A program made the translations under genes and the position numbers. Shown one piece after another: positions 4,572-63,458 of a stretch of DNA of 64,000 nucleotides (position 1 is its first letter; each line of letters starts with the position of its first letter). The notes below the pieces were generated by a model. It was not told the origin of the DNA. It made no database searches and worked only from the letters and a program-made list of their open reading frames with translations. The DNA is from Eledone cirrhosa (Eukaryota). The stretch is from the NCBI GenBank assembly GCA_964016885.1, contig OZ024741.1, positions 271,374,001 to 271,438,000 of the forward strand, in the 5' to 3' direction.

Positions 4572-4814
4572 TGCGAGATGGAAGAAAAAAGTACTGGGAA
4601 GAAGAGAAGCGAAGTAAGAAAGAGATATAGAGGAAGTATCTACCCCAGAAGTGTAACGGTACTTTATTAATCGACCACGAAAGGATGATAATAAAAAATG
4701 ACCTCGGTGGGATTTTGATCTCAGAGAGCAGAGAGACAGGTCACATCTACTCTCTTTAACGACTCAGAAAACCAAACATACATCTGCCATTGGTCCAGGA
4801 CAGCTGTAAGGTCT

Positions 4815-5635
4815 GTTATGTCATCTGTTGTGTCGTCTGCCGTATCGTCTGTTATGTCGTCTGTTGTGTCCTTTTTGTGTTATCTGTTGAGTCATCTGCT
4901 CTGTCATCTGCTCTGTCGTCTGCCGTATCGTCTACTGTGTCATCTGCTCTGTCGTCTGCCGTATCGTCTACTGTGTCATCTGCTCTGTCGTCTGCCGTAT
5001 CGTCTACTGTGTCATCTGCTCTGACGTCTGCCGTATCGTCTACCATGTCATCTGCTCTGTCGTCTGCCGTATCGTCTGCTGTGTCATCTGTTGTATCGTC
5101 TACCGTATCGTCTACTGTGTCATCTGTTGTGCCGTCTGCTGTATCGTCTGCTGTGCCATCTGCTCTGTCGTGTGCCGTTTCGTCTGCTGTGTCATCTGCT
5201 CTGTCGTCTGCCGTATCGTCTGCCATGTCATCTGTTGTGTCGTCTGCTGTATCGTCTACTGTGTCATCTTCTCTGTCGTCTGCCGTATCGTCTGCCATGT
5301 CATCTGCTCTGTCGTCTGCCGTATCGTCTACTGTGTCATCTACTCTGTCGTCTGCGATGTCATCTGCTCTGTCGTCTGCTGTGTCATATGCTGTATCGTC
5401 TGCCGTATCGTCTGCCATGTAATCTGTTGCGTCGTCTGCTGTATCGTCTACTGTGTCATCTGCTCTATCGTCTGCTGTATCGTCTACTGTGTCATCTGCT
5501 CTGTCGTCTGCCGTATCGTCTGCTCTGTCATCTGCTCTGTCGTCTGCCGTATCGTCTGCTGTGTCATCTGCTCTGTCGTCTGCCGTATCGTCTGCTGTGT
5601 CATCTGCTCTGTCGTCTGCCGTATCGTCTGCTAAG
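4815..5635. repeat. 12-bp-based minisatellite (TCTGCTGTGTCA / TCTGCCGTATCG variants, 36-bp higher order)
   Basis: Direct reading; open in several frames only because the unit is a multiple of 3 and lacks stops. Confidence 0.9.
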
Positions 5636-6012
5636 TCATGAATTATCGCAAGACAAATGTTTTCATATCAGATTCATCTGATACACTAATGAATCATCGA
5701 AAGTGAAAGTTCGTTCTCGTTAATGACTTTTCAGCTTCTATCATCTGATTAACGAGACAAACATGAAACTGAATTTCAATTAAGTAACATTTACATGCAC
5801 GGAGCCACACACTTATTATACAAACACATACACACTTACATAGACACTGGCATACATACACACACTTACACACATACACACACACACACACACACACATA
5901 CACACATACACACACACACAGACACATGCTTATTTATATAAACACACAGATACACTTACATAAACTGACATACATACACACACTTACATAGACACTGACA
6001 TACATACACACT

Positions 6013-9256: not shown

Positions 9257-10565
9257 GTGTTCTTGAACAAGACACTATATTTCACATTGTGTTCTTGAAC
9301 ACGACACTATATTTCACATTGTGTTCTTGAACACGACACTATATTTCACATTGTGTTCTTGAACACGACACTATATTTCACATTGTGTTCTTGAACAAGA
9401 CACTATATTTTACATTGTGTTCTTGAGCAAGACACTATATTTCACGTTGTGTTCTTGAACAAGACACTATATTTCACATTGTATCCTTGAACAAGACACT
9501 ATATTTCACATTGTGTCCTTGAACACGACACTATATTTCACATTGTATCCTTGAACAAGACACTATATTTCACATTGTGTCCTTGAACAAGACACTATAT
9601 TTCACATTGTATCCTTGAACAAGACACTATATTTCACATTGTGTCCTTGAACAAGACACTATATTTCACATTGTGTTCTTGAACACGACACTATATTTCA
9701 CATTGTATCCTTGAGCAAGACACTATATTTCACATTGTGTCCTTGAACAAGACACTATATTTCACATTGTGTTCTTGAACACGACACTATATTTCACATT
9801 GTATCCTTGAGCAAGACACTATATTTCACATTGTGTCCTTGAACAAGACACTATATTTCACATTGTATCCTTGAACAAGATACTATATTTCACATTGTGT
9901 CCTTGAACAAGACACTATATTTCACATTGTGTTCTTGAACACGACACTATATTTCACATTGTGTCCTTGAACAAGACACTATATTTCACATTGTGTCCTT
10001 GAACAAGACACTATATTTCACATTGTGTTCTTGAGCAAGACACTATATTTCACATTGTATTCTTGAGCAAGACACTATATTTCAGATTGTGTTCTTGAGC
10101 AAGACACTACATTTCACATTGTATTCTTGAGCAAGACACTATATTTCACATTGTGTTCTTGAGCAAGACACTACATTTCACATTGTGTTCTTGAGCAAGA
10201 CACTATATTTCACATTGTGTTCTTGAGCAAGACACTATATTTCACATTGTGTTCTTGAACAAGACACTATATTTCACATTGTGCTCTTGAACAAGACACT
10301 TGATTTCACATTGTGTCCTTGAACACGACACTATATTTCACATTGTGTCCTTGAACAAGACACAATATTTCACATTGTGTCCTTGAACAAGACACTATAT
10401 TTCACATTGTGTTCTTGAACAAGACATTATACTTCACATTGTGTCCTTGAACAAGACACTATATTTCACATTGTGTGCTTGAGCAAGACACTTTATTTCA
10501 CATTGTGTTCGTGAACAAGACACTATACTTCACATTGTGTCCTTGAATAAGACACTTTATTTCAC
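9257..10565. repeat. 31-bp minisatellite (~42 copies) expanded inside a SINE
   Basis: Unit gtgtccttgaacaagacactatatttcacatt. Both flanks match the SINE family at 4010-4240. Confidence 0.9.
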
Positions 10566-16817: not shown

Positions 16818-17103
16818 GTCGTTATGTTTTTTTCGTGCAATTGCCATACTTGATAACGAGGGGGCAGCCATCATCATCTATCTATGTATGTATTTATGTA
16901 TGTATGTATACGTGTATATAGGTAGGTATGTATGCATGTGTATGTATATGTGTATGTCTATATACTCAACTCAAGTCTCTAATGTACGCTCTTCTTTTAA
17001 ACAGACTCACAGGAAGATTTTTCCACGATCAACCCTGAACCAACGTAGTCTAACAAAAAAAGCAGGTTTGGATGAGAGGAAGACGACTGCAGCAGGCTTC
17101 ACT

Positions 17104-17239
17104 ATGGATGTGTCGCATTCTAACAGCGTTGATGCCTCTTATAAAGTTCTGGTATTAGGGGAGACTTGTGTTGGAAAGACAGCCCTCATCAACTGTTTGG
17201 TAGGGCGAGAGTTTCGTACCAGCATGTTACCCACCATTG
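17104..17239 (+). CDS. Rab-family small GTPase (Rab8/13/15-like), first recognisable coding exon
   Basis: MDVSHSNSVDASYKVLVLGETCVGKTALINCLVGREFRTSMLPTI-G: P-loop GxxxxGKT and switch I PTIG; donor G|gtaagt at 17239/40. Start ATG uncertain because the frame is open upstream, with acceptors at 17004 and 17012. Confidence 0.85.
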
Positions 17240-20076: not shown

Positions 20077-20137
20077 GTGTCGACTTTGTTAAGAAGACCT
20101 TCAACGTTGACGGTGCCAGAATCCAGTTGGCTGTGTG
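20077..20137 (+). CDS. Rab GTPase exon 2 (61 bp)
   Basis: ttttgtag|GT GTC GAC TTT..GTG TG|gtaagt; (G)VDFVKKTFNVDGARIQLAV(W); phases match the flanking exons. Confidence 0.92.
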
Positions 20138-21726: not shown

Positions 21727-22518
21727 TGTATTTGCATGCATGGCGTGTGTTTTCGCGTACGCATGTGTATGTACGTATATGGATGCGTGTATGTATATAT
21801 ATAATTATTATTGATTTCAATAACCTCTGTCATTTTCGTTCTACTAATTTATTTACATTATTCCTAACTCTGAAGCCGAGAATCATTCGGTTTCCTAAAT
21901 AGAATATTAGTCTACGACTTCATTTATACCATAAACGTGGTGTTTTCTTTGCGTGTAATTGTTCTCTACGCTCCACATAACGACGTATTATCTTCGCTTT
22001 TTTCGTTCATTGCCAGGGAACGTCTTCACGAACCAAAGTATTGTCTTCCTGTTTTCCTTCGGTTGCAACGTTTTTCGAAATATTTACTTCTGCGTTCACA
22101 GATTGATTTTTTTAGTTTCAGAAGATCCCGTTATATGATAACCGGAAGTATTGACATTTGAAAATTTTAAAAGAAGTGAATGTTAAAATAATCATTATAT
22201 ATAAGAATATTTATGTTTAATCAACAGCTACGAAATTTAGTAGATAAATTATGTAATATTCATTCATTATTTATTCAAAGTAATAATTGTTTCTACTTCT
22301 GTCACAAGGCCAGCAATTATCCTAGTGTATAAAATAAAGTACCAGTAATACACTGGGATAATTGCTGGCCTTGTGCCAAAAGTAGAAACAATTATTTATT
22401 CAAAGTAATCCGACTTATTTTACTAACGGGATAAAAAAAATATATTGAGGGCATACTCCTCCCATTCTTATATTTTGATACTGATATCATAACTCCCATA
22501 ATTCCATTGTTGTTTCAG

Positions 22519-22579
22519 GGACACTGCTGGGCAAGAACGTTTCCGGTCAATAACAAAAATGCAATATCGTGGGGCACAG
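22519..22579 (+). CDS. Rab GTPase exon 3 (61 bp; G3 box, switch II)
   Basis: tgtttcag|G GAC ACT GCT GGG CAA GAA..GCA CAG|gtaagg; (W)DTAGQERFRSITKMQYRGAQ. Confidence 0.93.
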
Positions 22580-25500
22580 GTAAGGGTTGACATGTTTCTA
22601 CAATATGGTGGGACACAGGTAAGGGTTGACATGTCTCTACAATATGGTGGGACACAGGTAAGGGTTGACATGTTTCTACAATATGGTGGGACACAGGTAA
22701 GGGTTGACATGTTTCTACAATATGGTGACACAGGTAAGGGTTGACATGTCTCTACAATATGGTGGGACACAGGTAAGGGTTGACATGTTTCTACAATATG
22801 GTGGGACACAGGTAAGGGTTGATATGTTTCTACAATATGGTGGGACACAGGTAAGGGTTGACATGTTTCTACAATATGGTGGGACACAGGTAAGGGTTGA
22901 CATGTTTCTACAATATGGTGGGACACAGGTAAGGGTTGACATGTTTCTACAATATGGTGGGGCACAGGTAAGGGTTGACATGTTTCTACAATATGGTGGG
23001 ACACAGGTAAGGGTTGACATGTTTCTACAATATGGTGGGGCACAGGTAAGGGTTGACATGTTTCTACAATATGGTGGGACACAGGTAAGGGTTGACATGT
23101 TTCTACAATATGGTGGGGCACAGGTAAGGGTTGACATGTTTCTACAATATGGTGGGGTACAGGTATGGGTTGACATGTTTCTACAATATCGTGACACAGG
23201 TAAGGGTTGACATGTTTCTACAATATGGTGAGGCACAGGTAAGGGTTGACATGTTTCTACAATATGGTGGGACACAGGTAAGGGTTGACATGTCTCTACA
23301 ATATGGTGGGACACAGGTAAGGGTTGACATGTCTCTACAATATGGTGGGACACAGGTAAGGGTTGACATGTCTCTACAATATGGTGGGACACAGGTAAGG
23401 GTTGACATGTTTCTACAATATGGTGGGACACAGGTAAGGGTTGACATGTTTCTACAATATGGTGGGACACAGGTAAGGGTTGACATGTCTCTACAATATG
23501 GTGGGACACAGGTAAGGGTTGACATGTTTCTACAATATGGTGGGACACAGGTAAGGGTTGACATGTTTCTACAATATGGTGGGACACAGGTAAGGGTTGA
23601 CATGTCTCTACAATATGGTGGGACACAAGTAAGGGTTGACATGTCTCTACAATATGGTGGGACACAGGTATGGGTTGACATGTCTCTACAATATGGTGGG
23701 ACACAGGTAAGGGTTGACATGTCTCTACAATATGGTGGGACACAGGTAAGGGTTGACATGTCTCTACAATATGGTGGGACACAGGTAAGGGTTGACATGT
23801 CTCTACAATATGGTGGGACACAGGTAAGGGTTGACATGTTTCTACAATATGGTGGGACACAGGTAAGGGTTGACATGTTTCTACAATATGGTGGGACACA
23901 GGTAAGGGTTGACATGTCTCTACAATATGGTGGGACACAGGTAAGGGTTGACATGTTTCTACAATATGGTGGGACACAGGTAAGGGTTGACATGTTTCTA
24001 CAATATGGTGGGACACAGGTAAGGGTTGACATGTCTCTACAATATGGTGGGACACAGGTAAGGGTTGACATGTCTCTACAATATGGTGGGACACAGGTAT
24101 GGGTTGACATGTCTCTACAATATGGTGGGACACAGGTAAGGGTTGACATGTTTCTACAATATGGTGGGACACAGGTAAGGGTTGACATGTTTCTACAATA
24201 TGGTGGGACACAGGGAAGGGTTGACATGTTTCTACAATATGGTGGGGCACAGGTAAGGGTTGACATGTTTCTACAATATGGTGACACAGGTAAGGGTTGA
24301 CATGTCTCTACAATATGGTGGGACACAGGTAAGGGTTGACATGTTTCTACAATATGGTGGGACACAGGTAAGGGTTGATATGTTTCTACAATATGGTGGG
24401 ACACAGGTAAGGGTTGACATGTTTCTACAATATGGTGGGACACAGGTAAGGGTTGACATGTTTCTACAATATGGTGGGACACAGGTAAGGGTTGACATGT
24501 TTCTACAATATGGTGGGGCACAGGTAAGGGTTGACATGTTTCTACAATATGGTGGGACACAGGTAAGGGTTGACATGTTTCTACAATATGGTGGGGCACA
24601 GGTAAGGGTTGACATGTTTCTACAATATGGTGGGACACAGGTAAGGGTTGACATGTTTCTACAATATGGTGGGGCACAGGTAAGGGTTGACATGTTTCTA
24701 CAATATGGTGGGGTACAGGTATGGGTTGACATGTTTCTACAATATCGTGACACAGGTAAGGGTTGACATGTTTCTACAATATGGTGAGGCACAGGTAAGG
24801 GTTGACATGTTTCTACAATATGGTGGGACACAGGTAAGGGTTGACATGTCTCTACAATATGGTGGGACACAGGTAAGGGTTGACATGTCTCTACAATATG
24901 GTGGGACACAGGTAAGGGTTGACATGTCTCTACAATATGGTGGGACACAGGTAAGGGTTGACATGTTTCTACAATATGGTGGGACACAGGTAAGGGTTGA
25001 CATGTTTCTACAATATGGTGGGACACAGGTAAGGGTTGACATGTCTCTACAATATGGTGGGACACAGGTAAGGGTTGATATGTTTCTACAATATGGTGGG
25101 ACACAGGTAAGGGTTGACATGTTTCTACAATATGGTGGGACACAGGTAAGGGTTGACATGTCTCTACAATATGGTGGGACACAGGTAAGGGTTGACATTC
25201 TCTACAATATGGTGGGACACAGGTAAGGGTTGACATGTTTCTACAATATGGTGGGGCACAGGTAAGGGTTGACATGTTTCTACAATATGGTGGGACACAG
25301 GTAAGGGTTGACATGTTTCTACAATATGGTGGGACACAGGTAAGGGTTGACATGTTTCTACAATATGGTGGGACACAGGTAAGGGTTGATATGTTTCTAC
25401 AATATGGTGGGACACAGGTAAGGGTTGACATGTTTCTACAATATGGTGGGGCACAGGTAAGGGTTGACATGTTTCTACAATATGGTGACACAGGTAAGGG

Positions 25501-27577
25501 TTGACATGTTTCTACAATATGGTGGGACACAGGTAAGGGTTGACATGTTTCTACAATATGGTGGGACACAGGTAAGGGTTGACATGTTTCTACAATATGG
25601 TGGGGCACAGGTAAGGGTTGACATGTTTCTACAATATGGTGGGACACAGGTAAGGGTTGACATGTTTCTACAATATGGTGGGACACAGGTAAGGGTTGAC
25701 ATGTTTCTACAATATGGTGGGACACAGGTAAGGGTTGACATGTTTCTACAATATGGTGGGACACAGGTAAGGGTTGACATGTTTCTACAATATGGTGGGA
25801 CACAGGTAAGGGTTGACATGTTTCTACAATATGGTGGGACACAGGTAAGGGTTGACATGTCTCTACAATATGGTGGGACACGGGTAAGGGTTGACATGTT
25901 TCTACAATATGGTGGGGCACAGGTAAGGGTTGACATGTTTCTACAATATGGTGGGGCACAGGTAAAGGTTGACATGTTTCTACAATATGGTGGGGCACAG
26001 GTAAGGGTTGACATGTTTCTACAATATGGTGGGACACAGGTAAGGGTTGACATGTTTCTACAATATGGTGGGACACAGGTAAGGGTTGACATGTTTCTAC
26101 AATATGGTGGGGCACAGGTATGGGTTGACATGTTTCTACAATATCGTGACACAGGTAAGGGTTGACATGTTTCTACAATATGGTGGGGCACAGGTAAAGG
26201 TTGACATGTTTCTACAATATGGTGGGGCACAGGTAAGGGTTGACATGTTTCTACAATATGGTGGGACACAGGTAAGGGTTGACATGTTTCTACAATATGG
26301 TGGGACACAGGTAAGGGTTGACATGTTTCTACAATATGGTGGGGCACAGGTATGGGTTGACATGTTTCTACAATATCGTGACACAGGTAAGGGTTGACAT
26401 GTTTCTACAATATGGTGGGGCACAGGTAAGGGTTGACATGTTTCTACAATATGGTGGGACACAGGTAAGGGTTGACATGTTTCTACAATATGGTGGGACA
26501 CAGGTAAGGGTTGACATGTCTCTACAATATGGTGGGACACAGGTAAGGGTTGACATGTTTCTACAATATGGTGGGCACAGGTAAAGGTTGACATGTTTCT
26601 ACAATATGGTGGGGCACAGGTAAGGGTTGACATGTTTCTACAATATGGTGGGACACAGGTAAGGGTTGACATGTTTCTACAATATGGTGGGACACAGGTA
26701 AGGGTTGACATGTTTCTACAATATGGTGGGGCACAGGTAAGGGTTGACATGTTTCTACAATATCGTGACACAGGTAAGGGTTGACATGTTTCTACAATAT
26801 GGTGGGGCACAGGTAAGGGTTGACATGTTTCTACAATATGGTGGGACACAGTTAAGGGTTGACATGTTTCTACAATATGGTGGGGCACAGGTAAGGGTTG
26901 ACATGTTTCTACAATATGGTGGGACACAGGTAGCGGTTGACATGTTTCTACAATATGGTGGGACACAGGTAAGGGTTGACATGTTTCTACAATATGGTGG
27001 GGCACAGGTAAGGGTTGACATGGTTCTACAATATGGTGGGACACAGGTAAGGGTTGACATGTTTCTACAATATGGTGGGACACAGGTAAGGGTTGACATG
27101 TTTCTACAATATGGTGGGGCACAGGTAAGGGTTGACATGTTTCTACAATATGGTGGGACACAGGTAAGGGTTGACATGTTTCTACAATATGGTGGGGCAC
27201 AGGTATGGGTTGACATGTTTCTACAATATCGTGACACAGGTAAGGGTTGACATGTTTCTACAATATGGTGGGGCACAGGTAAGGGTTGACATGTTTCTAC
27301 AATATGGTGGGACACAGTTAAGGGTTGACATGTTTCTACAATATGGTGGGACACAGGTAAGGGTTGACATGTTTCTACAATATGGTGGGACACAGGTAAG
27401 GGTTGACATGTTTCTACAATATGGTGGGACACAGGTAAGGGTTGACATGTTTCTACAATATGGTGGGACACAGGTAAGGGTTGACATGTCTCTACAATAT
27501 GGTGGGACACAGGTAAGGGTTGACATGTCTCTACAATATGGTGGGACACAGGTAAGGGTTGACATGTTTCTACAATA
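22562..27577 (+). repeat. 39-bp tandem array (~129 units) built from the exon-3/intron-3 junction
   Basis: Unit caatatggtgggacacag|gtaagggttgacatgtttcta; the first unit overlaps the last 18 nt of exon 3. Occasional 37- and 38-bp units. Confidence 0.97.
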
Positions 27578-28450
27578 ATAATTGTTTCTATATCTGGCAC
27601 AACGTCAGCAATTTGAAGGGAAGGTGTGGCAGTTGATTAAATCCACCCCAGTACGTTACTGGTATTTGATTTTATCAAGCCCCTCTCCTGTGAGGATGAA
27701 AAGCGAAGTTAATCTCGGAGGATTTGAACTCAAATAATAATAATAGTAATAATAATAATAATTGTTTCTACTTTTGGCACAAGGCCAGCAATTACCCCAG
27801 TGCATTACTGGTACTTTATTTTATCAACCCCGTAAGAATGAAAGTTTACCTAGGCGGGATTTGACCTCAGACCGGAAAGAGGCGTAACTCTATGCTGCAA
27901 AGCATGGTGTCCGACCCTTTACCGATACTGCCAAGATTTCTGATTTAGGCCCAAGGCCAACAATTTTGGGGGGAGGGAGACGTGGATTAAATCGATCCCA
28001 GATGAAAGGCAAAGCTAACTTCGGTGGGATTTGAACTCAGAACTGAAAGAGCCGTAACTCTATGCCTTAAAGCATATTGTCCGACGCTCTACCGATTACT
28101 CTCAATCAACCATTAACAATAATAATAATGGCTTCTGATTTAGGCACAAAGCCAACAATTGAAGGAAAAAGGAAAGTCGATTAAATCGACCCCAGTTAGT
28201 TACTGGTACTTTATTTTATCAAAACCCGGAAGGATGTAAATAAAGCTAACCCCGGCGAGATTTGAACACATGCATCCATAATAATTGTTTCTACTATTGG
28301 CACAAGGCCAGCAATTATCCCAGTACGTTACTGGTACTTTATTTTATCGACCCCGTAAGGATGAAAGGCAAAGTTAACCTCGGCGGGATTTGAACTCAGA
28401 CCGTAAAGGGACGTAACTATGTGTCAAAGCATGGCCTCCGATGCTTCCAG
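27577..28450 (-). mobile_element. Cluster of about five tRNA-derived SINE copies or fragments
   Basis: Repeated ataattgtttctac..ggcacaaggccagcaatt..tactggtactttattttatcgac..aggatgaaaggcaaag..gggatttgaactc. Confidence 0.75.
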
Positions 28451-28664
28451 AACAATCTTGAACATTTAGTATTATATAATCTCTCTCTTCCATATACAGG
28501 AGACCCAAAGGTCACATTGCCATTTGAAGTGTATTTAGTGTTTATAATACATATACTATTTATAATACAATACCTACACTCTACTTTCCCAAGTGTCGAG
28601 TACTTAACTAAACATCGTCTTACTAGTCTAAACTGGTAACTCCTAATGTATATCTCTCTCTCCC

Positions 28665-52889: not shown

Positions 52890-52967
52890 GGAATAGTACT
52901 GGTGTACGATGTGACCAACCCTTCAACCTTCACACATCTTTCATATTGGATGAACAGCATAAACAAC
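52890..52967 (+). CDS. Rab GTPase exon 4 (78 bp)
   Basis: ttgttgacag|GGA ATA GTA..AAC AAC|gtaagt; GIVLVYDVTNPSTFTHLSYWMNSINN; phase 0/0. Confidence 0.92.
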
Positions 52968-54332: not shown

Positions 54333-56050
54333 CGTTTCTGAATTTGTTTAGCAAGATTCTTTATCTGAAAACGTGTCTTGAAACCGATATTGTTATGCTT
54401 GGGGGGGGGGGGGGTCATGTTGCCAATAAGAAACACACGCACCAGTTACTTTCACTCCAATTTATTATAAATTAAATTTATAAATTTAAGAATTTATAAA
54501 TTTCCGCTTGGTTGGTTGGTTCCACAACCAGATGATTGTTTATATATTGTCAAAGTTCTTTCGTCACACATTCTGTGACCTCTTCAGTGACTGGGGATTC
54601 TTTTCTTTGTTTTTGTGCCTCTCCTTTGTTCTGTCCTACGCCATCGTGTTTTTTTAGAAAAAAGAAAACAAGAAAAAAAAACAAGATGGCGTAGGACAGA
54701 ACAAAGGAGAGGCACAAAACAAAGAAAAGAATCCCCAGTCACTGAAGAGGTCATAGAATGTGCGACGAAAGAACTTTGACAATATATGAACAACCGTCCG
54801 GTTATGGAACCAACCAACCAAGCGGAAATTTATAAATTCTTAAATTTATAAATTTAATTTATAATAAACTAGCAGTAAAGCCCGGCGTTGCTCGGGGTCG
54901 CTCAGTAGCTGTGTTAAAGTTACAATGTTAAGTTTCTTTTTTGGCTTAAAAACTGTAGTGTCTACTGTGCAGACTTGCATGTGGTGTTTTTGATTAATAT
55001 TCCCTCAACCAACAATATGCCTTATGAAGTTAAGAAAACATAACGATAACCCGAATGTTATAACAAAAGAGGATGCTGGGGATAAAAACTGCACTGGTTA
55101 TTTATTAACAAAGATCGAAAATGTAAACACTGCAACGCAGAGAAAAACATTAGCGTAACCAAATTATCAGTTATGTCTGTCTGCACGCCTATATCACCTC
55201 TCTGCACGACTGTCTGTCTGCACGCCTATATCACCTCTCTGCAAGACTGTCTGTCTGCACGCCTATATCACCTCTCTGCACGACTGTCTGTCTGCACGCC
55301 TATATCACCTCTCTGCACGACTATCTGTCTGCACGCGTATATCACCTCTCTGCACGACTGTCTGTCTGCACGACTGTCTGTCTGCACGCCTAACGAAATT
55401 TACAGATACATATATTTTAAATAAACTTATATAATGTTTGCTTTTTTTTACGAAATATTTGCTTGTTTTACGTAGTCTTTAAATAGACTTGTCTTCAAGT
55501 AAAAATATTGTTTTAAAATGCTTTTAAATGGAAATGAAGCTTGTTTTACGTAGTCTTTAAATAGACTTGTTTTCAAGTAAAAATATTGTTTTAAAATGCT
55601 TTTAAATGGAAATGAAGCAAAACGGAAGCTTAGTGTTCGAACTGATGAATTTTGCAGGTCAATATTTTGCTGGCTCGACAACTGTTCGTGTATTGTGTTA
55701 ATGTCATTTTAAACGCTGAGAAAGCCAGCGTAATTTTTTACGTAAGACGCTCAATGTAAACAGAACAAAGGGAAATAACTGATAACTTACGCTCAAAAAT
55801 CGATACATTATATTCGATTTCGTCACATAGGGTGGGTCAATTTGAAATTTTTTTTTCCGATGTCTTCGCTAGGGCTCAATGTACAAGTATAGCAATTTCA
55901 GTGCAATTCCGTGAGAGATTCTAAGAGGAGATGTGTGCCAAAAATCGATAGACAGACAGACAACCACAGTTTTATATATATAGAGTGGAGTGAAAGCAAC
56001 TGGTGCGTGTGTTTCTTATTGGCAACATGACCCTCCCAAAGCATAACAAT
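54311..56050. mobile_element. Fold-back hammerhead element (34280 family) interrupted by a Helitron
   Basis: Hammerheads at 54549-54591(-) and 54738-54780(+). The right arm stops at 54868 and resumes at 55985. Confidence 0.8.
54869..55984 (-). mobile_element. Non-autonomous Helitron (~1.1 kb)
   Basis: Minus strand starts TCTATATATATAAAA with (GTCT)n and ends cccg-agcaacg-ccggg hairpin plus CTAG|t; no TSD. Internal 38-bp tandem repeat at 55175-55390 and a ~79-bp duplication at 55461-55618. Confidence 0.82.
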
Positions 56051-56750: not shown

Positions 56751-57438
56751 ATGGTGTCATTAAAGTACAGTTGTTTCTCAGATACTTCGGCTTAATTTTG
56801 ACGTTATTTACACACACACAGACACAGACACAGACACACACACACACACACACACAAAACAAATAGAAGATAGACCCTGGCATAGCAGTTAAATTTCTAA
56901 TGTTTGTCTTTGTTTTCCTTTAAAACACCGAAGATTGCACGCAAGGTAAGTCATCAGTTTTGTTCCATGCAGTGTTGAGTAAAATTGATGTGTTACAAAC
57001 GTTTCGGCTTTATGTTACTTCATATTCATACGCCATATTGTGAACTATTTGTAGAAATCATTTATGATGTGAGAACTATTTTAGTTACATGCATCTAGAT
57101 TAAAACTTGGAATCCTGTCTAGTCTAAAGAAAGCAATATATAGATTGTTGTTGCTTTCTTTCCTTCTATAAAATTACAGAGTGTGATTTGAAAGAGAGAT
57201 TTTTGCTGTTATTTCTAGCAAGTCGAGTGACCACATAAAGGCTCCCCCATTGGTTTGTCCAATGTACTGTTGATATTGCAAATCTCAGGGGATGGGAGGA
57301 AATGGTGTTTAGTTACATCACTTTTCATTCCGAGTTGAAATCTCGCCAGTATTAAGTTTCTCTCTCGTTCTCCCTGGGTCGACAAATTAGTACCTGGCAA
57401 GTCTTTGTATTCCTCGCTGTCTAATATTAAAAACCGTT

Positions 57439-59245
57439 ACAGATGTTGTGGGATGTGAGATAGCAACGACGATGTGTAGCTCACCTTTACAGATGTTGTG
57501 GGATGTGAGATAGCAACGACGATGTGTAGCTCACCTTTACAGATGTTGTGGGATGTGAGATAGCAACGCCGATGTGTAGCTCACCTTTACAGATGTTGTG
57601 GGATGTGAGATAGCAACGCCGATGTGTAGCTCACCTTTACAGATGTTGTGGGATGTGAGATAGCAACGCCGTTGTGTAGCTCACCTTTACAGATGGTGTG
57701 GGATGTGAGATAGCAACGACGATGTGTAGCTCACATTTACAGATGTTGTGGGATGTGAGATATCAACGCCGATGTGTAGCTCACCGTTACAGACCTTGTG
57801 GGATGTGAGATAGCAACGACGGTGTGTAGCTTACCATTACAGACCTTGTGGGATGTGAGATAGCAACGACGGTGTGTAGCTTACCATTATAGCTGTTGTG
57901 GAATGAGAGAGAGCAACAGTGGGATGTAGCTTACCAATAGAGATGTTGTGAGATGGGAAATAGCAACAGTGGTGTGTAGCTCACCATTACAGATGTTGTG
58001 GGATGGGAAATAGCAACATTACTGTGTAATTCCCAGTTATAGATACTAAGGGATGTGAGATTGCAACGACGGTGTCTAGCTCACAGTTATAGATGTTAAA
58101 GGGTGTAAAATAACAACAACGGTCTTCTATCCCTTTATAGATAGCAACAGTGGTGTCTAGCTCACAGCTATATAGCAACAACAGCCTTCTAGCCCTTTAT
58201 AGATAGCAACAGTGGTGTCTAGCTCACATTTATATAGCAACAACGGTCTTCTAGCCCTTTATAGATAGCAACAGTGGTGTCTAGATCACAGTTATATAGC
58301 AACAACGACCTTCTAGCCCTTTATAGATAGCAACAGTGGTGTCTAGCTCACAGTTATATAGCAACAACGGTCTTCTAGCCCTTTATAGATAGCAACAGTG
58401 GTGTCTAGATCACAGTTATATAGCAACAACGACCTTCTAGCCCTTTATAGATAGCAACAGTGGTGTCTAGCTCACAGTTAAATAGCAACAACGACCTTCT
58501 AGCCCTTTATAGATAGCAACAGTGGTGTCTAGATCACAGTTATATAGCAACAACGGCCTTCTAGCCCTTTATAGATAGCAACAGTGGTGTCTAGCTAACA
58601 GTTAAATAGCAACAACGGCCTTCTAGCCCTTTATAGATAACAACAGTGGTGTCTAGCTCACAGTTATATAGCAACAACGGCCTTCTAGCCCTTTATAGAT
58701 AGCAACAGTGGTGTCTAGCTCACAGTTATATAGCAACAACGGTCTTCTAGCCCTTTATAGATAGCAACAGTGGTGTCTAGCTAACAGTTAAATAGCAACA
58801 ACGGCCTTCTAGCCCTTTATAGATAACAACAGTGGTGTCTAGCTCACAGTTATATAGCAACAACGGCCTTCTAGCTCTTTATAGATAGCAACAGTGGTGT
58901 CTAGCTCACAGTTATATAGCAACAACGGGCTTCTAGCCCTTTATAGATAGCAACAGTGGTGTCTAGCTCACAGTTATATAGCAACAACGGGCTTCTAGCC
59001 CTTTATAGATAGCAACAGTGGTGTCTAACTCACAGTTATATAACAACAACGGCCTTCTAGCTCTTTATAGATAGCAACAGTGGTGTCTAGCTCACAGTTA
59101 TATAGCAACAACGGCCTTCTAGCTCTTTATAGATAGCAACAGTGGTGTCTAGCTCACAGTTATATAGCAACAACGGGCTTCTAGCCCTTTATAGATAGCA
59201 ACAGTGGTGTCTAACTCACAGTTATATAGCAACAACGGTCTTCTA
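57439..59245. repeat. Compound minisatellite: 50-bp units grading into 62-bp units
   Basis: 50-mer acagatgttgtgggatgtgagatagcaacgacgatgtgtagctcaccttt to ~58130; then 62-mer agatagcaacagtggtgtctagctcacagttatatagcaacaacggtcttctagccctttat (~18 copies). Confidence 0.92.
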
Positions 59246-63350: not shown

Positions 63351-63458
63351 GAAATATCTCACAGTCATAACCATTTGGAACCAGTACCTATTGTATTGAT
63401 TGGCAATAAGATCGATCTGACGGATCGAATTAAGGTGTCTACTAGCAAAGGTAAAAAG
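63351..63458 (+). CDS. Rab GTPase exon 5 (108 bp; G4 box NKxD); gene continues beyond window
   Basis: ctttacacag|GAA ATA..AAA AAG|gtaggt; EISHSHNHLEPVPIVLIGNKIDLTDRIKVSTSKGKK. Confidence 0.9.

What the first reader, a model, noticed from the sequence alone, without database searches (positions are those of the whole stretch)
22562..27577. A splice donor amplified ~129 times: tandem array of the Rab exon-3/intron-3 junction
Seen: the 39-bp unit is the last 18 nt of exon 3 plus the first 21 nt of the intron. Nearly every unit therefore carries CACAG|GTAAGG, identical to the authentic donor at 22579. The span from first to last donor (22579 to 27551), corrected for about nine 37-mers and two 38-mers, equals 128 x 39. 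The unit is a stop-free multiple of 3, so donors 2-4 would add 1-3 in-frame VRVDMFLQYGGTQ peptides right after switch II; a 37-bp unit near 22725 then shifts frame to a stop at 22742-22744. CAATA microhomology between exon and intron explains the origin. Inference: this could give a ladder of length isoforms, an NMD-coupled expression rheostat or a U1 snRNP sink. Strict use of only the first donor would itself need explaining.
Basis: partly seen in the sequence, partly recalled or inferred. Interest (0 to 1): 0.8.

Follow-up and report, generated by a model that had tools for sequence, protein, structure and literature searches.

The report
Splice-donor minisatellite in octopus Rab intron
A 39-base piece spanning the end of one exon of an intact octopus Rab GTPase gene has been copied about 129 times into the next intron, but the one transcript seen uses the original splice site, so it is likely a harmless repeat of a kind already known from human and lancelet genes.

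Summary
The array at 22562-27577 has 129 donor positions (117x39, 9x37, 2x38 nt spacings), and 113 of 129 read CAG|GTAAGG. It is one locus in the genome, and k-mer depth (about 61x against 65x expected) argues against an assembly artefact. The host gene is an intact 225-aa Rab (211/225 identical to Octopus bimaculoides Rab-13-like). The one spliced contig available (run X4, depth 3) joins the native first donor (22579) to 52890. Only donors 2-4 could stay in frame, and 0 of 19 homologues covering this site carry an insertion there. The arrangement is a known class: human F7, CBS, IFI6 and ABCA7 junction VNTRs (ABCA7 up to about 427 units) and amphioxus 'mirages'. First-donor use was tested experimentally in F7. 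Minisatellites occur about every 12 kb here, so junction overlap is expected by chance. This scan found the same kind before in at least 3 other genomes. The ladder, rheostat and U1-sink ideas are unsupported. Verdict: a large new member of a known kind, of low interest.

The parts
22562..27577 (+). 39-bp minisatellite, 129 donor positions, 20 distinct unit types; units 4-24 repeated exactly as units 44-64
22519..22579 (+). Third coding exon of the Rab gene (61 nt; DTAGQ...YRGAQ); its last 18 nt are the first unit's exon part
   Evidence: spliced in X4 contig
22577..22585 (+). Authentic donor CAG|GTAAGG, the one used in the spliced contig
22619..22698 (+). Pseudo-donors 2-4 (GT at 22619, 22658, 22697), the only ones that would keep the frame (+13, +26, +39 aa); use not observed
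22742..22744 (+). In-frame TGA after the first 37-nt unit; lies upstream of donors 6-129
27573..27735 (-). Dispersed SINE-like element whose tail abuts the array's right end; shares TGTTTCTAC with the unit
   Evidence: sequence; 9 copies of the tail motif on + in the window; SINE label inferred from a B-box-like motif (recalled)
17005..17239 (+). First coding exon (ATG at 17104; P-loop GETCVGKT)
20077..20137 (+). Second coding exon (61 nt)
   Evidence: its 3' end seen as loose end of X4 contig
52890..52967 (+). Fourth coding exon (78 nt), acceptor for the array-bearing 30.3-kb intron
56934..56945 (+). Predicted alternative 12-nt microexon (IARK), skipped in the X4 contig
   Evidence: IARK present in P0001, P0025, P0020 and absent in P0026
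63351..63458 (+). Fifth constitutive coding exon (GNKID); two more exons lie beyond the window at extended 64693-64812 and 78559-78672

Best explanation
This is a junction-spanning minisatellite: 39 bases across the exon/intron donor of an intact octopod Rab gene are repeated 129 times, the one transcript seen splices at the first, native donor, and the array is likely a tolerated, selectively neutral repeat. Shown: the unit's make-up, the intact gene, donor-1 splicing in one contig, and the presence of the array in sequencing data. Inferred: the first duplication arose by slippage between the two CAATA copies 39 nt apart, the intronic one possibly supplied by the tail of a SINE-like element inserted just behind the donor. 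The array then grew by slippage and unequal exchange (a 21-unit block is duplicated exactly). The first unit keeps the native codons because it is coding and lies at the edge. The spliceosome likely takes the most upstream of the identical donors, as tested for human F7, and any rare use of donors 5 and later would give premature stops.
For: Spliced contig (run X4, 330 nt, depth 3) joins exon 2 to 22519-22579, then 52890-52967, then 63351. Its letters before 52890 are the native exon end, not the array's. Gene intact: 225 aa, one stop, AG at all six acceptors and GT at all six donors, 211/225 identical to O. bimaculoides P0026 without gaps. Array k-mer depth 246.2 against 4.03 for a unique contig in run X1, ratio 61, expected 65 from the assembly. 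0 of 19 homologues covering the site have an insertion. The first 15 donors are all intact, so there is no sign of purging nearby pseudo-donors (0/15 against 16/114 altered, Fisher p=0.21). GT itself is broken in 3 units. 10 minisatellites in 124 kb, 5 inside this gene. Precedent: PMC1557585, PMC3087553, PMC3902484.
Against: RNA evidence is one contig at depth 3 from one sample of unrecorded library type. Treated as about three molecules, it bounds use of other donors only below about 63%, and contigs drop rare forms. CBS, IFI6 and ABCA7 do use downstream donors. 8 of 15 distinct substitutions fall in the 9-nt donor motif (p=0.011, post hoc and uncorrected; 0.025-0.038 when counted as events), a weak hint of selection against extra donors. 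I could not show another true exon-derived array in this genome: 0 of 8 donor-like arrays assessed had a clear exon upstream, and a ninth locus gave no array under my filter. Neutrality was not tested across individuals.
Confidence: 0.82

Rival explanations
1. Leaky pseudo-donors: donor 1 dominates, but donors 2-3 are used at a few percent and array length slightly lowers functional mRNA, as for the human CBS and ABCA7 VNTRs. This would be a side effect, not an adaptation.
For: Donors 2-15 have the same 9-mer as donor 1. Exons ending at donors 2-4 would be 100-178 nt. Two pseudo-sites are used in CBS and IFI6 (PMC1557585 introduction), and a one-unit retention isoform exists in ABCA7 (PMC5954066 passages). 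Weak excess of substitutions in the donor motif.
Against: No array-containing contig in X4 over 22582-22665. F7, LMNB2, PDGF and the amphioxus genes use only the authentic site.
Confidence: 0.3
2. Adaptive device: a ladder of Rab isoforms, an NMD rheostat or a U1 sink.
For: The first three spacings are 39 nt and stop-free. High unit identity keeps 113 of 129 donors intact.
Against: Only three in-frame forms are possible. The insertion would split YRGAQ from the following strand GIVLVYD, a site with no insertion in 19 homologues. A search with exon plus three inserts found no protein matching the insert (weak evidence). A frame-breaking unit within the first four has a 30% chance. High identity is what recent amplification gives. 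Tandem donor-like motifs number in the thousands genome-wide.
Confidence: 0.04
3. Assembly artefact: a short duplication inflated by the assembler.
For: Units 4-24 equal units 44-64 exactly. No read or contig spanning the array was seen. If single-copy depth in X1 is about 8 rather than 4, the depth implies about 60 units per haplotype.
Against: The collapsed 69-nt unit contig has depth 246 in X1. 20 unit types are arranged with positional structure. The window has no N.
Confidence: 0.03

Closest known systems
Human F7 intron-7 37-bp VNTR (Borensztajn et al. 2006, PMC1557585; read abstract, synopsis, introduction and discussion, not the results)
   Same: First unit spans the exon/intron boundary, so identical donors follow the real one; only the most upstream donor is used.
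   Different: 5-9 copies with 4 exonic bases in F7; 129 copies with 18 exonic bases here, unit a multiple of three, in a mollusc; mechanism tested in F7 but not here.
Human CBS intron-13 (15-20 units), IFI6/6-16 (25 pseudo-sites), LMNB2 and PDGF minisatellites (as summarised in the PMC1557585 introduction; CBS nomenclature in PMC2630376 passages; primary papers not read)
   Same: Junction-spanning units with a long exonic part (CBS: 24 exonic + 7 intronic by its name c.1444_1467+7).
   Different: CBS and IFI6 also use the next two donors; no such use was seen here at depth 3.
Human ABCA7 intron-18 25-bp VNTR (De Roeck et al. 2018, PMC5954066; passages)
   Same: Array includes the donor; very high copy number (about 12 to 427 units); use of a later donor gives an out-of-frame transcript.
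   Different: Unit starts at the GT with no exonic part; length polymorphism and splicing effects measured there, untested here.
Amphioxus 'mirages' in Adh3, TnC, globins BflGb6/9 and PGBD5 (PMC3087553, PMC3902484; passages)
   Same: Invertebrate tandem duplications of exon/intron boundaries; normal splicing retained; boundary units escape homogenisation.
   Different: 3-6 units of 150-160 bp in BflGb6; here 129 short units at 96% identity, in a cephalopod.

Membership tests
Junction-spanning minisatellite (F7-type VNTR / mirage) | Head-to-tail array with units of minisatellite length | tested here: met
   39-bp period, 129.1 copies
Junction-spanning minisatellite (F7-type VNTR / mirage) | First unit spans an authentic exon/intron boundary of a transcribed gene | tested here: met
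   Spliced contig leaves the genome at 22579; intact ORF
Junction-spanning minisatellite (F7-type VNTR / mirage) | Splice signal reiterated in the intronic units | tested here: met
   112 of 128 copies identical to the real donor 9-mer
Junction-spanning minisatellite (F7-type VNTR / mirage) | Normal mRNA still made from the authentic site | tested here: met
   One contig, depth 3
Junction-spanning minisatellite (F7-type VNTR / mirage) | Length polymorphism between alleles (the V in VNTR) | tested here: inconclusive
   RAD-seq runs X5 and X6 of other individuals did not cover the locus
F7-type strict first-donor selection | Downstream donors functional but silent | not testable with these tools
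   Needs deep RNA reads or minigenes
CBS/IFI6/ABCA7-type leaky array | Transcripts using donor 2 or 3 | tested here: inconclusive
   None assembled in X4, depth too low
Rab GTPase (host gene) | Ras-family domain with G1, G3, G4, G5 motifs and C-terminal cysteines | tested here: met
   GETCVGKT, DTAGQ, GNKID, ETSAK, CAC end; close homologue P0001 hits PF00071 at 7e-52; best solved relatives Rab3C, Sec4, Rab18, Rab8A
Rab13 subfamily proper | Orthology to vertebrate Rab13 | not tested
   Database names of homologues disagree (Rab-13-like, Rab-3C-like, Rab-8B-like, Rab-10); no tree built

The most novel reading that the evidence does not exclude
A SINE-seeded donor array in an octopus Rab gene is used in regulated fashion: donors 2-4 give Rab isoforms with 13-39 extra residues behind switch II in some tissues, later donors feed NMD, and array length tunes gene dosage between individuals. 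This would be a first functional junction minisatellite in a cephalopod.
Probability: 0.05. Interest if true: 0.6.

Novelty: new member of a known kind. Interest (0 to 1): 0.2.

Why it matters
As it stands it extends a known oddity to a cephalopod at high copy number. It is a natural test of whether the first-donor rule shown for human F7 holds in a mollusc with 112 identical competitors and a 30-kb intron. One paper search for a cephalopod case (octopus + minisatellite + intron + splice site) returned only a human repeat review (listing only), so it may be unreported for this group, but that is one search of an open-access library and supplements were not examined. It also matters for annotation: aligners and gene predictors can misplace this donor. 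It does not open a new mechanism.

Tried and rejected
(1) Run search with the first coding exon listed no holder on record as RNA; this is no evidence on expression. X4 was taken as RNA only because its contig is spliced at three exon junctions. Polymorphism is untested. (3) Search for proteins carrying the insert: 3 hits among 370 candidates, all fungal, matching only 34% of the query; weak negative. (4) Search for other exon-derived arrays in the genome: two donor patterns, only the first 100 places listed each. Nine loci fetched, 8 assessed by eye from translations, 0 with a clear coding exon. One looks derived from a LINE-like sequence on the other strand (L015, recognised from recall), one has a possible short exon (L016), and L020 gave no array under my filter. 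Inconclusive. A third pattern was not run. (5) X1 has no contig over 22465-22581; a hole proves nothing. (6) Introns of other cephalopods could not be fetched, so the age of the array is unknown. (7) No structure was predicted for an insert isoform. (8) PMC10078293 (passages) gave nothing on donor-reiterating repeats. (9) A resemblance of the unit to the G-rich human minisatellite core is recalled, untested and not used. (10) No earlier notes exist for this genome.

Full report
Observation. It holds 129 donor positions; the 128 spacings are 117 of 39 nt, 9 of 37 and 2 of 38. 113 of 129 read CAG|GTAAGG and 16 differ. The unit is the last 18 nt of a 61-nt exon plus the first 21 nt of the intron, with CAATA at both boundaries. 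A search of the 3.0-Gb genome with the junction found one candidate region; all 55 matches lie in this array.

Host gene. Motif scans and tblastn place seven coding exons: 17005-17239 (ATG 17104), 20077-20137, 22519-22579, 52890-52967, 63351-63458, and two beyond the window at extended 64693-64812 and 78559-78672. They give a 225-aa frame with one terminal stop, 211/225 identical to O. bimaculoides Rab-13-like isoform X2, without gaps. Homologues come from octopods, gastropods and bivalves under conflicting names. The best solved relatives are Rab3C, Sec4, Rab18 and Rab8A. The organism is therefore an octopod (inference), and the gene is not decaying.

Is the array real? In run X1, which may be the assembly's source, the unit collapses into one 69-nt contig of depth 246.2, against 4.03 for a unique 826-nt contig. 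The ratio is 61; the assembly predicts 65. If single-copy depth is really about 8, this means about 60 units per haplotype. Contig depth is a rough measure, but dozens to over a hundred copies exist outside the assembly. Units 4-24 recur exactly as units 44-64, as block duplication would give. Other individuals could not be checked: two RAD-seq runs missed the locus.

Which donor is used? Run X4 (another sample of the same study, library not on record) has one 330-nt contig of depth 3. It joins the second exon to 22519-22579, then to 52890-52967, then to 63351. The letters before 52890 are the native exon end, which occurs once in the array region and differs from the commonest unit at two bases. 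So the gene is transcribed and donor 1 is used. No X4 contig covers 22582-22665. This is thin evidence: three molecules would bound other donors only below about 63%.

What later donors would give. Donors 2-4 add 13, 26 or 39 residues in frame. Donor 5 shifts the frame to a stop at 63368, and donors 6-129 lie behind the stop at 22742. A ladder could have at most three extra rungs. The insertion point lies between YRGAQ and GIVLVYD. Of 21 aligned homologues, one lacks the region and one is the reference; 0 of the other 19 have an insertion there and one has a 1-residue deletion. Functional insert isoforms are therefore unlikely (inference).

Signs of selection. The first 15 donors are all intact, against 16 of the remaining 114 altered (p=0.21), so nearby pseudo-donors have not been purged. 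A frame-breaking unit among the first four has a 30% chance. Against my reading, 8 of 15 distinct substitutions lie in the 9-nt donor motif (p=0.011; 0.009-0.038 under other countings; post hoc, uncorrected). I note it as a weak hint only, because none lies where it would matter most.

Origin (inferred). CAATA stands 39 nt apart in the unduplicated state, which fits slippage. The right end of the array abuts the tail of a dispersed SINE-like element, and TGTTTCTAC is shared between the unit and that tail. Three other copies of the tail in the window are preceded by TACA. The element may have supplied the intronic CAATA. Both native bases of the exon end survive separately in internal units (6 and 30 units), so the array descends from this junction.

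Chance. The window and flanks hold 10 minisatellites in 124 kb, 5 of them inside this gene. The chance that one covers a donor here is about 2%. Extrapolated with an assumed 150,000-250,000 donors, 470-790 such cases are expected in the genome (rough). Tandem donor-like motifs are common anyway: 7,914 triple matches against 907 for the control with one pattern, and 15,564 against 11,581 with another. I could not confirm a second exon-derived array: 0 of 8 assessed.

Known cases. PMC1557585 (abstract, synopsis, introduction, discussion) describes the F7 37-bp VNTR, where only the most upstream of identical donors is used. It lists IFI6 and CBS, where two pseudo-sites are also used, and LMNB2 and PDGF, where only the authentic site is used. 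PMC5954066 (passages) describes an ABCA7 VNTR of up to about 427 units with an out-of-frame one-unit retention isoform, so neither the size nor the NMD idea is new. PMC3087553 and PMC3902484 (passages) describe amphioxus 'mirages' that do not disturb splicing; I was led to these by earlier notes of this scan, which list eight similar findings in other genomes. One search for a cephalopod report found none.

Verdict. A real, large junction-spanning minisatellite in an intact octopod Rab gene, with the native donor used in the one transcript seen. It is a new member of a known kind. Neutral repeat 0.82; minor leakage possible on top of that (0.3); adaptive function about 0.04. Interest 0.2.

Noticed in passing
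window 56934-56945 (+): A 12-nt AG...GTAAGT-bounded segment encoding IARK matches the 4-residue difference between O. bimaculoides isoforms X1 and X2 and is also in O. vulgaris and O. sinensis proteins: a likely conserved alternative microexon, skipped in the X4 contig.
   Followed up: partly
window 57433-58097 (+): A 50-bp minisatellite about 490 nt behind the microexon; about ten units contain AG + 12 nt + GTGAG, looking like pseudo-microexons, with no sequence likeness to the real one.
   Followed up: no
window 27573-28460: A chain of several SINE-like elements begins exactly at the array's right end.
   Followed up: partly
window 22290-22400: Two inverted halves of the same SINE-like tail form a near-palindrome about 120 nt upstream of the third coding exon.
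   Followed up: no
window 22420-22460: Part of a dispersed repeat with a related contig at depth 1329 in run X4; identity unknown.
   Followed up: no
window 4811-5639, 9257-10565, 55174-55372, 58110-59245: Four further minisatellites (36, 32, 37 and 62 bp) unrelated to splice sites as far as seen.
   Followed up: no
L016 (G000:C1:202750700-202753700), about 1850-2175: A degenerate 32-bp donor-like array preceded by a possible 28-nt exon after a pyrimidine-rich AG; a candidate older junction-derived array, unproven.
   Followed up: partly
G000, reverse strand: The triple AGGTAAGT pattern has 6,926 reverse-strand matches against 988 forward, suggesting one or a few very large satellite arrays.
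   Followed up: no
window 17005-17103: The frame of the first coding exon is open for 33 codons upstream of the ATG and the exon begins at an acceptor-like AG, so an upstream exon probably exists; not located.
   Followed up: no
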